Shown here: piece by piece, positions 2,308 to 7,800 of the stretch
How the letters are laid out: each line of letters starts with the position of its first letter
Numbering within the stretch: position 1 is the stretch's first letter
NCBI GenBank assembly: GCA_963797095.1
Contig: CAWCNY010000005.1
Coordinates: 1 to 64,000 of the forward strand
Length of the DNA stretch: 64,000 nt
Source of the DNA: an uncultured Chloroflexia bacterium
Lineage (GTDB): Bacteria > Chloroflexota > Chloroflexia > QHBQ01 > JADMIH01
Direction: 5' to 3'
The notes under the pieces: model-generated
What the model was told of the DNA's origin: nothing
Databases searched by the model: none
The model's input: only the letters and a program-made list of their open reading frames with translations
Translations under genes and position numbers: made by a program

Positions 2308-3658
2308 CCGTGCGTGGAAAGAGCAGTAATGTAAACTCGTAAGGTTAATAAGACTGCGGGTCTAGAGCTTCTCCTGGCGTGATCCGATACCCAGCGATTA
2401 GAATCAAAGTGCCCTCGTTCGAGTGGCATTCTTGTATGGGAGAAGTATTCTGATTTGGTCGCATTTCTTCAGTTCTTTGTAATGCTTGTGATCCCCGCGT
2501 TCTGGCGCCGATTTATTGGCCGGATTTGGAAAAGGCCTGCCAGTGATTCCCTTCCTACGGCCGCGGTGGCCGGTGCCTTGGCTGGCGCTATGATAGACCT
2601 TTGCCGTAGCAAGGGAGAACTGATAGGTGAGAATGCGCTACTGCGCCAACAGTTGGTTGTCTTGCGCCGTCAGGTCAGCCGGCCACAGCTCACCAGTTCA
2701 GATCGAGCCCTGTTGGTGCTGTTGGCGAGCAGGCTGCGAACCTGGAAGAGTGCTCTGTTCATCGTCCAACCCGATACCCTACTCCGCTGGCACAGACAGG
2801 GCTTCCGCCTGTTCTGGAGGAGAAAGTCCAGAGCGGCTTCTCGTGAACCGAAGACACCTATGGAGACCATAGAGTTGATCAAGCAAATGGCTTTGGAGAA
2901 CCGGCTGTGGGGAGCCGAGCGGATAAGGGGAGAGTTGCTCAAGCTGCACATTAGGGTGTGTAAGCGCACTATCCAGAAGTACATGCGCCAATCCCGCAGA
3001 CCCGCTCCCACCGAACGCAGATCGAACCAAAACTGGCGGACCTTCCTGCATAACCATGCTTCTGTCACATGGGCTTGCGATTTCCTACCCGTGTACGACC
3101 TGTTCTTCCGCCCATTGTTCATCTTCGTCATCATCGAGCTTGGCTCTCGGCGGGTAGTTCATTTCGGCGTCACTCGATCTCCAACAGACGAATGGGCCGC
3201 CCAGCAACTCAAGGAAGCAACACCATTCGGGGACGCGCCGCGGTTCTTGATACGGGACAACGACAGCAAGTATGGAAAGAAGTTCACGCATGTGGCGGTG
3301 AGCAGTAGCATCGAGGTGCTGCGAACGCCTTACAAAGCGCCGAGGGCGAACGCTGTGTGCGAGAGGTTGATGGGCAGTGTTCGTCGCGAGTGCTTGGACC
3401 ACATTCTGATCTGGCGTGAGAAGCATCTGTATCGAGTGGTGAAGGAATATGTGCGGTACTACAACTCCGCTCGTCCACATCAAGGGCTCGGACAGGCTAT
3501 ACCGGATCGGGCGGGCTCATCGATGCAGTCAATGCAGCAAGTTCCGCCGAGTAACCCCGAAGTTGGCGGGAAGGTAATCAGCTTGTCAGTGCTTGGCGGC
3601 TTGCATCACGATTATCGGCGGGCTGCATGAGCGCGGATGACAATGGTAGCCACCACAG
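2308..3658 (+). mobile_element. insertion sequence with integrase-core (rve, IS3/IS481-like) transposase
   Basis: ORF 2455-3630; imperfect ends ccgtgcgtgg / ccaccacag; boundaries approximate. Confidence 0.65.
2455..3630 (+). CDS. integrase core domain transposase
   Basis: WGAERIRGEL, WACDF, FLIRDNDSKY, PRANAVCER (DDE), YYNSARPHQGL, LGGLHHDYRRAA. Confidence 0.92.
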   Translation: MVAFLQFFVMLVIPAFWRRFIGRIWKRPASDSLPTAAVAGALAGAMIDLCRSKGELIGENALLRQQLVVLRRQVSRPQLTSSDRALLVLLASRLRTWKSALFIVQPDTLLRWHRQGFRLFWRRKSRAASREPKTPMETIELIKQMALENRLWGAERIRGELLKLHIRVCKRTIQKYMRQSRRPAPTERRSNQNWRTFLHNHASVTWACDFLPVYDLFFRPLFIFVIIELGSRRVVHFGVTRSPTDEWAAQQLKEATPFGDAPRFLIRDNDSKYGKKFTHVAVSSSIEVLRTPYKAPRANAVCERLMGSVRRECLDHILIWREKHLYRVVKEYVRYYNSARPHQGLGQAIPDRAGSSMQSMQQVPPSNPEVGGKVISLSVLGGLHHDYRRAA

Positions 3659-4657: not shown

Positions 4658-4889
4658 TAAGGTGGCCCAGGTTGTCAAGACCACCGGGAGGCGCTTTCTA
4701 AGGTGAGATTGCTTCCTTCCGTGATGGGTGTTGCTTGCGTCTCTGGTGTCGCTGCTAGCCGGTGGTAGAGTGCCGCCGGTGTTCGGTAGTTAAGGGCTTG
4801 GTGGGGCCGGTCATGGTTGTAGAAATCGATGTACTGGCCGAGGCTCTGCCTTGCCTCTCTAGGGGTGCAGTATTCGTGCAGGTACACCT
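4658..4889 (-). mobile_element. IS3-family remnant (3' end of transposase plus right IR)
   Basis: VYLHEY..ARQSLGQYIDFYNHDRPHQALNYRTPA; terminal ..ggtcttgacaacctgggccacctta on the minus strand. Confidence 0.8.
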
Positions 4890-5367
4890 GTGGGCTAAGG
4901 GCCGTGCGCCTTGAAGTATTGCTATTAGTATGAAGTAGCCAGAGGGCGCATCCCGTGCTATCCTCGCTGCAGACGTTGAGTTGGCGGGGACGCCCAGGGG
5001 TGCGCGGCGTCAGGGCCGGTCGACCTGTGAGTTGGGACAGGGTACCAACCCAAGCCCGTATTGCTATTTGACCGCCCGTCCGATTCCACTCAACTGAGAA
5101 GGCGTCATTCCGGCGTCAAGCTCGTATCGGTATGTGTAAACGCCTACGCCCGAACGATGCGCCCTCGAATTGGCCTGGCCTCGAATTATGAGTATGGAGA
5201 TTATCTGACGAAAGGAGGTTTATACAGTGATGGATATGGATGCTCCATTTGGCCCACCTCAGCGGTATGTGGGGCTTGATGTCCACAAGCACTTCGTGGT
5301 GGTCGCTGCCGTAGATGGCCGACAGCAAATCGTCTTGCGTCCCTGTCGGCTGTCGTTCAACGACTGA
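4890..5367 (+). mobile_element. IS110-family remnant: ~340 bp non-coding left end plus truncated recombinase N-terminus (5230-5367)
   Basis: RBS aaaggagg at 5211; unlisted ORF MDMDAPFGPPQRYVGLDVHKHFVVVAAVD carries the IS110 RuvC-like GLDVHK motif; cut off by the intron fragment. Confidence 0.78.
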
Positions 5368-5737
5368 GATACACCTGGAGTGGATGCCCTCTTTACTCCG
5401 GGGTCTGGTGTCCCAGTCAGAGAATTGCACGCTTCCCTGACCTTCAGCAGACATGTCCCGATGTCTACCTCTTGACCCAGCATTGCCGTCTTGGTCAGCC
5501 AACCTCCGGCAACTCTTTTCTGACGAAGCCTCATCAAGGGTTCACTCTCGTTCATCCGTCCAGGTTTTCCCTAGCCCGCTCTGTACCGTTGGCTGGCCTT
5601 CGGCTTAGGCGTTATCCCCAGCTTCGCACCTCATGTTATCATGACGCACGTGAGGATTGGGAACAGGCTTTGGACACTAGCCTGGGTTGATTAGTTTTGC
5701 CGTTCAACCACTCATACGAAGCGACCTCGTATCGCAC
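5366..5737 (-). ncRNA. group II intron 5' fragment (domain I only, no ORF or domain V visible)
   Basis: minus strand begins GTGCGATACGAGGTCGCTTCGTATGAGTGG (canonical GUGYG start); EBS1 hairpin gtcagggaa-gcGTGCAA-ttctctgac (5416-5441) complementary to the 5' exon TTGCAC. Confidence 0.82.
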
Positions 5738-5857
5738 GTGCAACTCAAAGCCACAAATCAGTGCAACCCAAAGTCTCACTCAGTGCAATCCAAAGCCGCG
5801 CGCAGTGCAACTCAAATCCTAAAGTTACATCAGTGCGACCCAATTCTGCAAGTGACA
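5738..5857 (-). mobile_element. Tn5053/Tn402- or Tn7-like transposon end with five transposase-binding repeats
   Basis: minus strand TGTCACTTGCAGAATTGGGTCGCAC; plus-strand repeats (CA)GTGCAAYYCAAAG at 5738, 5761, 5783, 5805 and 5833 (last more degenerate), spaced 23/22/22/28 bp. Confidence 0.78.
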
Positions 5858-5948
5858 CCTGGATGTGGAAAACCTGTCCTGAAGCCGCAAGCTAGGTTAG
5901 TATTAGTAACGAGAATGGCCCTTCTCAGAACTTATCTCAGGAGTTGAT

Positions 5949-6725: not shown

Positions 6726-6777
6726 TGGTTCAATATGAATTACCATACACTTGATTCTAAAGAAAGCCGGGTATTTC

Positions 6778-7800
6778 ATGCACGATGACGTTTCGGTAGT
6801 CACTCCCTATCAAGAGCAAGCAGCTGCTACTGCGATCCAACTCTTCGATGAGCGACTGGTCACACCAGCCATAGGCATGGATCAGCACCCTGCCGCCGTC
6901 TATCTGGCCCATCTCGCGCCGGGCTCGCGAAGGACGATGACCAATGCCCTCAATACGATGGCGGGTTTGCTGACCAAGAATCGATGCAACATTCAAACGC
7001 TCGATTGGAGCGCCCTACGCTATCAGCACACAACCGCTTTGCGAACACTCCTCGCCGATCTTTACGCCCCGTCCACCGCCAACAAGATGCTGGCCGCTTT
7101 GCGCGGTGTCTTACAGGAAGCATGGCGCTTGGGCAAAATGAGCGCGGAGGAATACCGGAGAGCCGCCGATTTACCCTCTGTGCGCGGGAGCACATTGCCG
7201 CGAGGAAGAGCCATCACCAAAAGCGAGCTATCTCGCCTCTTTGCCTCCTGCGCCAGAGATCGTGGCCCGGCGGGCAGACGTGATGCCGCTATCCTTGCCG
7301 TGCTCTACAACTGCGGCCTCCGTCGAAGCGAGCTGGTCGACCTCGACCTTTCCGACTATGACACCAACGATGCAGCACTCATGGTTCGAAGTGGCAAGGG
7401 CAGAAAGGCACGTGTCAGCTATACCACCGATATAAGCCAGAAAGCAATAGACGGATGGCTGGAGGCCAGGGGTCTGAGCGCGGGTCCCCTTTTCACACCG
7501 GTCAATAAGTCAGGCAAAGTAAGCCTCCGCAGGCTAAGCGACCAGGCCATTCGCAAGCTACTATTGAAGCGCGCTGCCGAGGCTGGGGTAAGCCACTTCT
7601 CTCCCCACGACCTTCGACGCACAATGATAGGGGATCTCCTGGATGCTGGTGCCGATATTTCCACTGTGCAGCGATTGGCAGGCCACGCCAATGTAACTAC
7701 CACAGCACGCTATGACCGTCGTGGCGAATCTGCCAAGCGGAGAGCTGCCAATCTGCTTCAGGTACCACTTACGAGTGAAAGTGAAGATAATGGCATCTGA
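6778..7800 (+). CDS. tyrosine recombinase/integrase
   Basis: GLRRSE (R), GKG (K), HDLRR (HxxR), AGH, TARYD (Y); N-terminal core-binding domain; start uncertain (6751 TTG or 6778 ATG). Confidence 0.92.
   Translation: MHDDVSVVTPYQEQAAATAIQLFDERLVTPAIGMDQHPAAVYLAHLAPGSRRTMTNALNTMAGLLTKNRCNIQTLDWSALRYQHTTALRTLLADLYAPSTANKMLAALRGVLQEAWRLGKMSAEEYRRAADLPSVRGSTLPRGRAITKSELSRLFASCARDRGPAGRRDAAILAVLYNCGLRRSELVDLDLSDYDTNDAALMVRSGKGRKARVSYTTDISQKAIDGWLEARGLSAGPLFTPVNKSGKVSLRRLSDQAIRKLLLKRAAEAGVSHFSPHDLRRTMIGDLLDAGADISTVQRLAGHANVTTTARYDRRGESAKRRAANLLQVPLTSESEDNGI

What the first reader, a model, noticed from the sequence alone, without database searches (positions are those of the whole stretch)
5366..5857. 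Group II intron apparently homing to the transposase-binding repeats of a transposon end
Seen: on the minus strand the intron's GTGCG start directly follows ..TTTGAGTTGCAC, the innermost of five repeats in a TGT-terminated transposon end. The intron's hairpin gtcagggaa-gcGTGCAA-ttctctgac (5416-5441) carries a loop GTGCAA that is perfectly complementary to TTGCAC. That hexamer is the conserved core of 4 of the 5 repeats. Established: EBS1-IBS1 pairing sets group II intron target choice; known specialised targets include attC sites, terminators and IS elements. Inference: this intron lineage targets TniA/TnsB-binding sites, a multi-copy, constrained, non-coding target that would let it ride on or disable transposons. 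I do not know whether this target class has been described.
Basis: partly seen in the sequence, partly recalled or inferred. Interest (0 to 1): 0.8.

Follow-up and report, generated by a model that had tools for sequence, protein, structure and literature searches.

The report
Dead intron in transposon-end repeats
A broken copy of a self-splicing mobile intron sits exactly at the edge of one of the short repeats that a jumping gene's enzyme is thought to grip, and every close relative sits at the same kind of spot, so this intron family appears to home in on those repeats.

Summary
On the minus strand a group II intron 5' fragment (nt 1 to about 375, window 5737-5361) starts right after ..TTTGAGTTGCAC. 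That is the innermost of four head-to-tail 22-25-nt units of a transposon right end, and a fifth TGT-terminated unit lies outside them. The hairpin at 5416-5441 is the EBS1 hairpin: in relatives its loop changes together with the 5' exon. A full-length copy (G000:C2:710353-712845; D5/D6 match; RT-X-HNH protein with one frameshift) shows the fragment is a real intron.

All 6 of 6 5' junctions of this lineage follow a unit of the same transposon family (five in this genome, one in a congener), and one 3' remnant also lies in such an end. The family encodes a TnsB-like transposase, a TnsC-like ATPase and a tyrosine recombinase, but no TnsA. Three unit positions are used, and empty sites exist.

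Two caveats apply. Three of the six 5' exons end in TGTCCC, which EBS1 (GTGCAA) cannot pair with, and no intact copy was found. Homing into mobile elements is known. Homing into arrayed transposase-binding units turned up in none of five literature searches. I rate it a new variant of a known behaviour, of moderate interest.

The parts
5361..5737 (-). Group II intron 5' fragment, nt 1 to about 375 (essentially domain I). Starts with GTGCG at 5737. The 3' side is truncated.
   Evidence: 94-95% identical to nt 1-375 of the full-length copy G000:C2:710353-712845. A sub-threshold RF02012 match lies at 5601-5685 (28.3 bits against a cut-off of 34).
5416..5441 (-). EBS1 hairpin with a 9-bp stem and the loop GCGTGCAA. 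EBS1 is GTGCAA at 5430-5425.
   Evidence: Fold. The loop covaries with the 5' exon in relatives.
5511..5523 (-). EBS2 region (TCAGAAAAGAGTT), a single-stranded variable stretch just after the conserved GAGGCTTCGT.
   Evidence: At the same alignment position, relatives carry 5-6 nt complementary to exon positions -14..-8: L108 TTGTT:AACAA, L124 ATAAGA:TCTTAT, L060 ATGTGG:CCACAT, G001 CAAATA:TATTTG. In the window only about 4 bp can form (AAAG:CTTT or CAGA:TTTG).
5738..5760 (-). Unit 4, the innermost unit of the transposon right end: TGATTTGTGGCTTTGAGTTGCAC. It is the intron's 5' exon. IBS1 is TTGCAC at 5743-5738, and the IBS2 core TTTG is at 5749-5746.
   Evidence: In the intact element the homologous unit is followed by TGGTTCATGAGTGAACC instead of the intron.
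5761..5782 (-). Unit 3: TGAGTGAGACTTTGGGTTGCAC.
5783..5804 (-). Unit 2: TGCGCGCGGCTTTGGATTGCAC.
5805..5829 (-). Unit 1, the terminal unit of the end that matches the intact element: TGTAACTTTAGGATTTGAGTTGCAC.
   Evidence: Homology to G000:C3:101348-101439 (94.6% over 92 nt) stops at this TGT.
5830..5857 (-). Extra outer unit TGTCACTTGCAGAATTGGGTCGCAC followed by TGA. It is either a fifth unit or the stub of another element's end.
   Evidence: TGTCAC.. is the usual terminus of this transposon family in congeners. It has no counterpart in the intact element of this genome.

Best explanation
The window holds a dead 5' fragment of a mobile group II intron. The intron encodes an RT-maturase-HNH protein and has IIB-like EBS1 and EBS2. 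Its homing site is the boundary between the 22-25-nt direct-repeat units that make up the ends of a TnsA-less Tn7/Tn5053-like transposon family. That family encodes a TnsB-like transposase, a TnsC-like ATPase, a 711-aa protein of no known family and a tyrosine recombinase. Its ends carry 2 units on one side and 4 on the other.

Inferred mechanism:
- The intron RNA pairs EBS2 (CAAA..) with TTTG at -12..-9, and EBS1 (GTGCAA) with TTGCAC at -6..-1 of a unit.
- It reverse-splices at the unit's last base, in front of the T that begins the next unit or the inner palindrome.
- The HNH domain nicks the other strand to prime cDNA synthesis.

Every unit ends in the same hexamer, so one element offers up to six sites. 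The units are inverted at the two ends, so the intron always reads inward.

Insertion after the innermost unit, as in the window, leaves the unit array intact, and the intron could travel as cargo. Insertion after the terminal unit splits the array and should cripple that end. The copies ending in TGTCCC most likely came from a sister EBS1 allele (GGGACA, three substitutions away) that was later lost or overwritten by exchange between copies.

Shown: the anatomy, the EBS1 and EBS2 positions, the site pattern and the empty sites. Inferred: the pairing in vivo, the nicking, transposase binding to the units, the effect on transposition and the sister allele.
For: 1. It is a real intron.
- The full-length copy C2:710353-712845 has a D5/D6 match to RF00029 of 61.7 bits against a cut-off of 40, ending exactly at the 3' junction.
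- It encodes RVT_N and RVT_1, followed by a maturase-like stretch and an HNH-type motif read by eye from the second frame.
- Its joined exons reconstitute intron-free ends seen at C3:95258 (minus strand) and in G014.

2. EBS1 and EBS2 are placed by covariation. 13 of 23 relatives match at EBS1 against 2.8 expected.

3. Site pattern.
- 6 of 6 5' junctions follow a unit.
- A D6 remnant at C2:650485-650449 is followed by left-end inner sequence.
- Three positions are used: after the terminal unit (5 cases), after unit 4 of a right end (the window), and after the last unit of a left end.

4. The insertions look independent. The 25-nt exons are more diverged than the introns in 12 of 15 pairs (Fisher one-sided p<0.05).

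5. The target is a transposon end.
- The intact element C3:95265-101440 has 4+2 units and genes with Mu-transpos_C/rve, AAA_22/TniB and Phage_integrase domains.
- Its closest solved relatives are TnsB (7svw, E 4e-29) and TnsC (7m99, E 6e-12).
- Homology between copies stops at the TGT.
- At C2 the TGT interrupts a solute-binding-protein gene.

6. Specificity. 0 of 4 non-transposon TTTGAGTTGCAC sites are occupied. 0 of 79 5' exons of wider relatives that share the intron's 5' motif end in TTGCAC or TGTCCC.
Against: - 3 of 6 5' exons (C2, C1, C3:1132322) end in TGTCCC. Only positions -1, -3 and -6 can pair with GTGCAA, and the one such copy that retains EBS1 (C2) carries GTGCAA.
- Intron sequence variants do not sort by exon type, so no sister allele is actually seen.
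- EBS2 pairing in the window copy is only about 4 bp.
- 9 of 11 TTGCAC unit sites in this genome are empty.
- No intact copy exists. The lineage was found in 2 of 40 genomes of the order, and in the class sample of 401 genomes copies of 90% identity or more again came only from those two.
- Gene conversion among intron copies could make exons look older than introns and inflate the count of independent events.
- The intact element has no target-site duplication at its flanks (TCAGG against GCTGC), and no TniQ match was found.
Confidence: 0.7

Rival explanations
1. The intron entered a transposon end once or twice by chance, and the present copies were spread by transposition, duplication and recombination of the transposon. 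On this view there is no specialised target class.
For: - C2 and C1 have similar exon and intron divergence (2/25 against 7/131) and may stem from one event.
- All copies are decayed and sit in rearranged, nested mobile DNA.
- Bacterial group II introns are commonly found inside other mobile elements (passages of PMC3522654).
Against: - Three different unit positions and both end types are occupied.
- Exons are significantly more diverged than introns in 12 of 15 pairs.
- EBS1 is perfectly complementary to the hexamer shared by all TTGCAC units, so every such unit boundary is a predicted homing site.
Confidence: 0.12
2. Site choice is set mainly by something other than EBS1-IBS1. Candidates are contacts of the intron protein with the conserved TTTGAGT and the TG(A/G)TT that follows, or a DNA shape or protein-bound state of the unit array. 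That would let the same intron enter both TTGCAC and TGTCCC units.
For: - 3 of 6 junctions have a non-complementary IBS1, yet the insertion point relative to the unit is identical.
- Intron variants do not sort by exon type.
- All six exons share TTTGAGT at -12..-6, and the known or expected 3' exons start with T.
Against: - In relatives of the same intron clade EBS1 covaries tightly with IBS1, so pairing matters in this clade.
- From recalled knowledge of Ll.LtrB-type introns, three mismatches in IBS1 would normally block reverse splicing.
- C2 and C5 are identical over nt 294-357 around EBS1 but differ at 13 positions in nt 190-293. That fits exchange between copies.
Confidence: 0.13
3. Cause and effect are reversed: the transposons insert next to intron 5' ends, so the intron is the target.
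For: - Other Tn7-like or miniature elements with 5-bp duplications did insert inside this intron's first 70 nt.
- Sibling transposons insert into each other's ends.
Against: - At C2 the units continue on both sides of the intron, and the joined exons equal intron-free ends.
- In the window the intron lies inside the array, not outside the TGT terminus.
Confidence: 0.03

Closest known systems
Group II introns that home into insertion sequences, such as E.c.I4 in IS3-like transposase genes and RmInt1 in ISRm2011-2
   Same: The homing site lies in another mobile element, so it is multi-copy and dispensable to the host. Occupation of available sites is incomplete, and decay into fragments is common (passages of PMC3522654; the RmInt1 target is recalled).
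   Different: Those sites are single positions inside transposase coding sequence. Here the site is non-coding, is repeated 2-4 times per end, and coincides with the presumed transposase-binding units. Splicing therefore cannot rescue any gene, and at the DNA level the insertion changes the architecture of the end.
Class C (IIC) introns that insert at integron attC sites or after terminators, such as S.ma.I2
   Same: The target is a non-coding recombination site used by the host element's own recombinase (passages of PMC4424553).
   Different: IIC introns lack the endonuclease domain. They recognise a DNA stem-loop plus a very short IBS1 and have no EBS2. This intron has an HNH domain, a 6-nt EBS1 and an EBS2, and its target has no stem-loop upstream.
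TnsA-less Tn7-like and Tn5053/Tn402-type transposons, including the transposition module of type V-K CRISPR-associated transposons
   Same: The target element has a TnsB-like DDE transposase, a TnsC/TniB-like ATPase, TG-terminated ends built of arrayed repeats (2 and 4 units) and a recombinase gene at one end. Family traits are taken from passages of PMC7765201. The 2+4 arrangement of Tn402 is recalled, not read.
   Different: It has a tyrosine rather than a serine recombinase. There is no TniQ match; a 711-aa protein of no known family stands in that place. No CRISPR parts were seen. No target duplication flanks the one intact copy.

Membership tests
Mobile group II intron | 5' end GUGYG | tested here: met
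   GTGCG at window 5737-5733. The same start occurs in all copies.
Mobile group II intron | Domains V/VI (Rfam RF00029) | tested here: met
   Met for the lineage: C2:712769-712845 scores 61.7 bits against a cut-off of 40. Not met in the window copy, which is cut off at nt ~375.
Mobile group II intron | Domain I-IV covariance model | tested here: inconclusive
   RF02012 scores 28.3 bits against a cut-off of 34 in both the window and the C2 copy.
Mobile group II intron | Intron-encoded reverse transcriptase with maturase and endonuclease parts | tested here: met
   RVT_N (E 1.6e-31) and RVT_1 (E 2.7e-47) in the C2 copy. A maturase-like stretch and an HNH-type motif lie in a second frame after one frameshift; these were read by eye and not scanned. 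Absent from the window fragment.
Mobile group II intron | EBS1-IBS1 pairing at the 5' junction | tested here: met
   6 of 6 bp pair in the window, in C3:21216 and in G001. 3 of 6 bp pair in C2, and the same would hold for C1 and C3:1132322 if they carried the same EBS1. The EBS1 position is confirmed by covariation.
Mobile group II intron | Self-splicing and retrohoming activity | not testable with these tools
   No intact copy was found. The lookup of sequencing runs was unreachable.
Tn7-like / Tn5053-type transposon end | TG-terminated end at which homology between copies stops | tested here: met
   Homology stops at TGTAAC (5829). At C2 the TGT interrupts a gene.
Tn7-like / Tn5053-type transposon end | Arrays of about 22-nt direct repeats, in inverted orientation at the two ends | tested here: met
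   The intact element has 4 units at one end and 2 at the other. Similar arrays occur in congeners.
Tn7-like / Tn5053-type transposon end | TnsB/TniA-type transposase and TnsC/TniB-type ATPase | tested here: met
   Met in the intact element. Neither gene is present beside the window's end, whose interior holds insertion-sequence debris.
Tn7-like / Tn5053-type transposon end | TniQ/TnsD-type target selector | tested here: not met
   PF06527 finds nothing in the genome. The 711-aa gene matches no Pfam or NCBIfam family, and its best atlas score is 0.83.
Tn7-like / Tn5053-type transposon end | 5-bp target-site duplication | tested here: not met
   The flanks of the one intact element differ (TCAGG against GCTGC). 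It abuts another element, so this is weak evidence.
Tn7-like / Tn5053-type transposon end | Transposase binds the repeat units | not testable with these tools
   Inferred by analogy with TnsB on Tn7 ends (abstract of PMC9308760 in the listing).
Class C (IIC) intron | No endonuclease domain, no EBS2, and insertion after a DNA stem-loop | tested here: not met
   An HNH-type motif is present, EBS2 is present, and there is no hairpin in the 25-nt 5' exons.

The most novel reading that the evidence does not exclude
This intron lineage tracks the transposase-binding units themselves rather than one fixed sequence. It has entered two transposon subfamilies whose unit hexamers differ at three positions (TTGCAC and TGTCCC), always at the unit boundary. 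It would do so either by fast switching of EBS1 alleles that follow the co-evolving transposase and binding site, or by reading a feature of the unit array other than IBS1. That would make it a dedicated parasite, and a possible brake, of Tn7-like transposon ends.
Probability: 0.15. Interest if true: 0.75.

Novelty: new variant of a known kind. Interest (0 to 1): 0.5.

Why it matters
Group II introns are known to shelter in other mobile elements, usually at one position in a transposase gene or at integron attC sites. In this case the homing site is the repeated, non-coding unit that the transposase presumably has to bind.

- One element offers several sites.
- The site is constrained by the transposon's own need for it.
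- The outcome depends on which unit is hit: the intron rides as cargo behind the innermost unit, or splits the array after the terminal unit.

It is a natural example of one selfish element using the recognition sites of another. It is also a possible natural way of disabling Tn7-like ends, which are now engineered as CRISPR-associated transposons. The TGTCCC cases offer a testable question about how fast EBS1 can follow a changing target.

Tried and rejected
- **Rfam at gathering thresholds over the window.** It found only a tRNA, so the intron had to be established through the full-length copy.
- **Hairpin just upstream of EBS1 as an exon-binding site for TGTCCC.** Its loop is CGGGAC. Rejected: relatives carry GNRA tetraloops there (GCAA, GAGA, GTGA), so the match is a coincidence.
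- **TGGGACACC as an exon-binding site.** Rejected: it pairs with the intron's own GTGTCC, and the two change together to GGCAC/GTGCC in relatives.
- **The other half of the solute-binding gene cut at C2, to size that element.** No PF00496 match lies nearby. A search for a matching right end found nothing convincing.
- **Metagenome scan with an intron-internal 22-mer.** It returned one contig, identical over the compared stretch to the G001 locus, so it is counted once.
- **G018 intron fragments.** They belong to a different relative with another 5' exon and no clear EBS1 match.
- **G034 copy.** It starts with TTGCG, lies in a reading frame that looks like an IS6-type transposase (read by eye), and its loop does not match its exon. 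It was left out of the covariation argument.
- **The 711-aa gene.** It matches no family, and its atlas scores (0.83) are too low to use.
- **Public sequencing runs,** sought for spliced RNA or empty alleles. Four tries were unanswered, so no reads were laid.
- **Supplementary files of papers** are closed. Tables of intron insertion sites in such files, and the Zimmerly intron database, could hold an earlier example that I could not see.

Full report
**What is in the window**

Read on the minus strand, a TGT at 5857 opens a run of five head-to-tail units:
- TGTCACTTGCAGAATTGGGTCGCAC (5857-5833), followed by TGA
- TGTAACTTTAGGATTTGAGTTGCAC (5829-5805)
- TGCGCGCGGCTTTGGATTGCAC (5804-5783)
- TGAGTGAGACTTTGGGTTGCAC (5782-5761)
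- TGATTTGTGGCTTTGAGTTGCAC (5760-5738)

GTGCG follows at 5737. The hairpin GTCAGGGAA-GCGTGCAA-TTCTCTGAC lies at 5441-5416. It folds as a 9-bp stem with an 8-nt loop (dG -11.4 kcal/mol, z -4.6).

**Is it an intron?**

Rfam at gathering thresholds finds only a tRNA in the window. At relaxed thresholds there is a sub-threshold domain I-IV match at 5601-5685 (RF02012, 28.3 bits against 34).

The window's own genome settles the question. The 372 nt are 95% identical to G000:C2:710353-710723, and shorter 5' pieces lie at C1:118181, C3:21216 and C3:1132322. The C2 copy is full length:
- It has a D5/D6 match above the Rfam cut-off at 712769-712845 (61.7 bits against 40).
- It has a reading frame with RVT_N and RVT_1.
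- After one frameshift, that frame continues in a second frame with a maturase-like stretch and an HNH-type motif, both read by eye.

The intron is 2493 nt long (710353-712845). The window copy is nt 1 to about 375 only. No copy in this genome is intact. The copy in a congener (G001) is broken at nt 1528 by other reverse-transcriptase-coding DNA.

**Is the loop EBS1?**

More distant relatives (about 70% identical) have other 5' exons, and the loop of the homologous hairpin changes with them:
- G038: exon ..CATGAAG, loop CTTCATG.
- G028: exon ..AACTTG, loop CGAGTT, with one G-U pair.

A scan of public genomes for the conserved intron 5' motif returned 119 stretches, of which 80 loci were listed. 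Sixty-six of these introns had enough sequence on both sides. In 23 of them the conserved CCCCGGRGTA landmark could be located. In 13 of those 23 the expected window holds a complement of at least 6 bp to the intron's own last six exon bases, against 2.8 expected when the exons of other introns are used. Examples are L108 TCTGGTG:CACCAGA and L124 TGACCT:AGGTCA. L133 has the same junction as G028 and is counted once.

EBS2 was located in the same way. It is a variable single-stranded stretch just after the conserved GAGGCYTCGT. Pairings include L108 TTGTT:AACAA, L124 ATAAGA:TCTTAT, L060 ATGTGG:CCACAT, and in G001 CAAATA:TATTTG at -14..-9. In the window copy EBS2 can form only about 4 bp.

Two other elements looked complementary to some exons and were excluded. 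The neighbouring hairpin loop CGGGAC is a GNRA tetraloop in relatives. TGGGACACC pairs with the intron's own GTGTCC.

**What is the target?**

A search for Mu-transposase-type genes, followed by inverted-repeat mapping, found an intact, intron-free element at G000:C3:95265-101440. Its structure is as follows:
- The right end has four units (..TTTGAGTTGCAC | ..TTTGGATTGCAC | ..TTTGAGTTGCAC | ..TTTGAGTTGCAC), followed by TGGTTCATGAGTGAACC.
- The left end has two units.

Its genes are a tyrosine recombinase, a 577-aa protein with Mu-transpos_C and rve domains, a 340-aa AAA_22/TniB-like ATPase, and a 711-aa protein with no family match. The closest solved relatives are TnsB (7svw, E 4e-29) and TnsC (7m99, E 6e-12) of a CRISPR-associated transposon. 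There is no TnsA gene in the element and no TniQ match in the genome.

Window 5738-5829 is 94.6% identical to this right end, and the homology stops at the TGT. In the window the intron stands exactly where the intact element has TGGTTCA. The outermost unit (5857-5833) lies outside this homology.

That the units are transposase-binding sites is an inference from Tn7 and Tn402 (abstract of PMC9308760 in the listing; passages of PMC7765201). The 2+4 arrangement of Tn402 is recalled, not read.

**Where do the copies sit?**

All 6 of 6 5' junctions follow a unit of this transposon family:
- Window: after unit 4 of a right end (..TTGCAC).
- C3:21216 and G001: after a terminal unit TGTCAC..TTTGAGTTGCAC.
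- C2, C1 and C3:1132322: after a terminal unit TGTYAC..TTTGAGTGTCCC.

A D6 remnant at C2:650485-650449 is followed by left-end inner sequence.

At C2 the next unit and the inner palindrome follow the intron. The joined exons equal intron-free ends at C3:95258 (minus strand) and in G014.

Ends of the family occur in 10 of 40 genomes of the order. That tally includes two genomes flagged unpublished, whose sequences I did not use. The family has two kinds of unit, ending in TTGCAC or in TGTCCC.

In this genome 15 sites match TTTG[AG][GA]TTGCAC. Eleven lie in transposon ends, and two of those are occupied. Four lie in a coding repeat followed by CCTGA, and none of those is occupied. None of 79 5' exons of the wider relatives ends in TTGCAC or TGTCCC.

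Close copies (90% identity or more) were found only in G000 and G001 among 40 genomes of the order. In the class sample of 401 genomes, 9 had any match at E <= 1e-8, and close copies again came only from those two.

**One event or several?**

The 25-nt exons differ more than the introns in 12 of 15 pairs (one-sided Fisher p<0.05). The pairs C2-C1, C2-C3b and C1... C2-G001 behave differently: C2-C1 and C2-C3b are not significant, and C2-G001 is borderline at p=0.047. Together with the three distinct unit positions, this argues for at least four insertions. Gene conversion between intron copies would bias this test.

**The unresolved point**

TGTCCC pairs with GTGCAA at only 3 of 6 positions, yet C2, the only such copy that retains EBS1, carries GTGCAA. 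Intron variants do not sort by exon type.

GTGCAA and GGGACA differ by three substitutions, as do TTGCAC and TGTCCC. C2 and the window copy are identical over nt 294-357, around EBS1, but differ at 13 positions in nt 190-293. I therefore favour a lost or overwritten sister EBS1 allele. A determinant other than EBS1 cannot be excluded.

**What is known**

Passages of a review list three target specificities for bacterial group II introns: homing sites, terminator motifs and attC sites (PMC4424553). Passages of PMC3522654 call targeting of insertion sequences a widely used strategy, with E.c.I4 at fixed positions in IS3-like transposase genes.

Five full-text searches found no report of homing into arrayed transposase-binding units of a transposon end. 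Supplementary tables and the intron database could not be consulted.

**Verdict**

It is incomplete on mechanism, because half of the junctions do not match EBS1, and all copies are dead. I rate it a new variant of a known behaviour, of moderate interest.

Noticed in passing
window 4881-4925 and 4680-4880 (minus strand): A 45-nt stretch matches the 3' ends (D6 region) of two other group II introns, at C6:300481-300525 and C4:713846-713883. It is followed by the C-terminal part of an integrase-core (rve) transposase frame, read by eye. This looks like the stub of a second, different intron in an insertion-sequence gene, joined to the first intron's domain I by 435 nt of unique sequence.
   Followed up: partly
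G000:C3:21189-21009, C3:20960-20780 and C3:1132295-1131584: Miniature TGT/TGC-ended elements with subterminal repeats and 5-bp duplications (ATGAG, CCAAA) lie inside the first 70 nt of the intron. Two different element types entered at the same intron position, nt 27. The intron's 5' hairpin may be a preferred target for these elements.
   Followed up: partly
G000:C3:95230-95270; G014 locus L194: Sibling transposons of the two subfamilies are inserted head-to-head into each other's end units. The extra outer unit in the window (5857-5830) may be a same-direction case. The ends of this family seem to be hot spots for insertion in general.
   Followed up: partly
window 6751-7800 (+); G001 locus L031: A tyrosine recombinase gene lies about 0.9 kb outside the TGT end. 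It is only 27% identical to the transposon's own recombinase. A related gene (77% identity over 108 nt) lies about 1 kb outside the intron-bearing end in G001. This recalls the habit of Tn5053-type elements of inserting next to recombinase genes and their sites.
   Followed up: partly
window 5901-5932 and G000:C3:101519-101550: A 32-nt stretch (TATTAGTAACGAGAATGGC..) is shared at 90.6% identity about 75 nt outside the right ends of two copies of the transposon. It could be part of a preferred insertion site.
   Followed up: no
G000:C3:7998-10650: A 2.65-kb element has 42-nt inverted repeats starting TGTAAAGTTGGAAATTAAGTGGCAC. It encodes a split transposase with rve and Mu-transpos_C domains and an AAA_22 ATPase. 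It is a smaller relative of the same transposase type.
   Followed up: partly
G000:C2:306456, C6:508560, C7:127727, C7:128021 and others: A repeated coding motif (..CAGTAYTTCGAGCG..TTTGAGTTGCACCCTGAGAAC) recurs in many places and contains the intron's target 12-mer, yet it is never occupied.
   Followed up: no
window 2455-3630 (+): A 391-aa transposase with HTH and integrase-core domains lies inside what should be the transposon's interior.
   Followed up: no
G001 locus L175, from intron nt 1528 onward: The congener's intron copy is interrupted by a different reverse-transcriptase coding sequence. This is possibly a nested retroelement.
   Followed up: no
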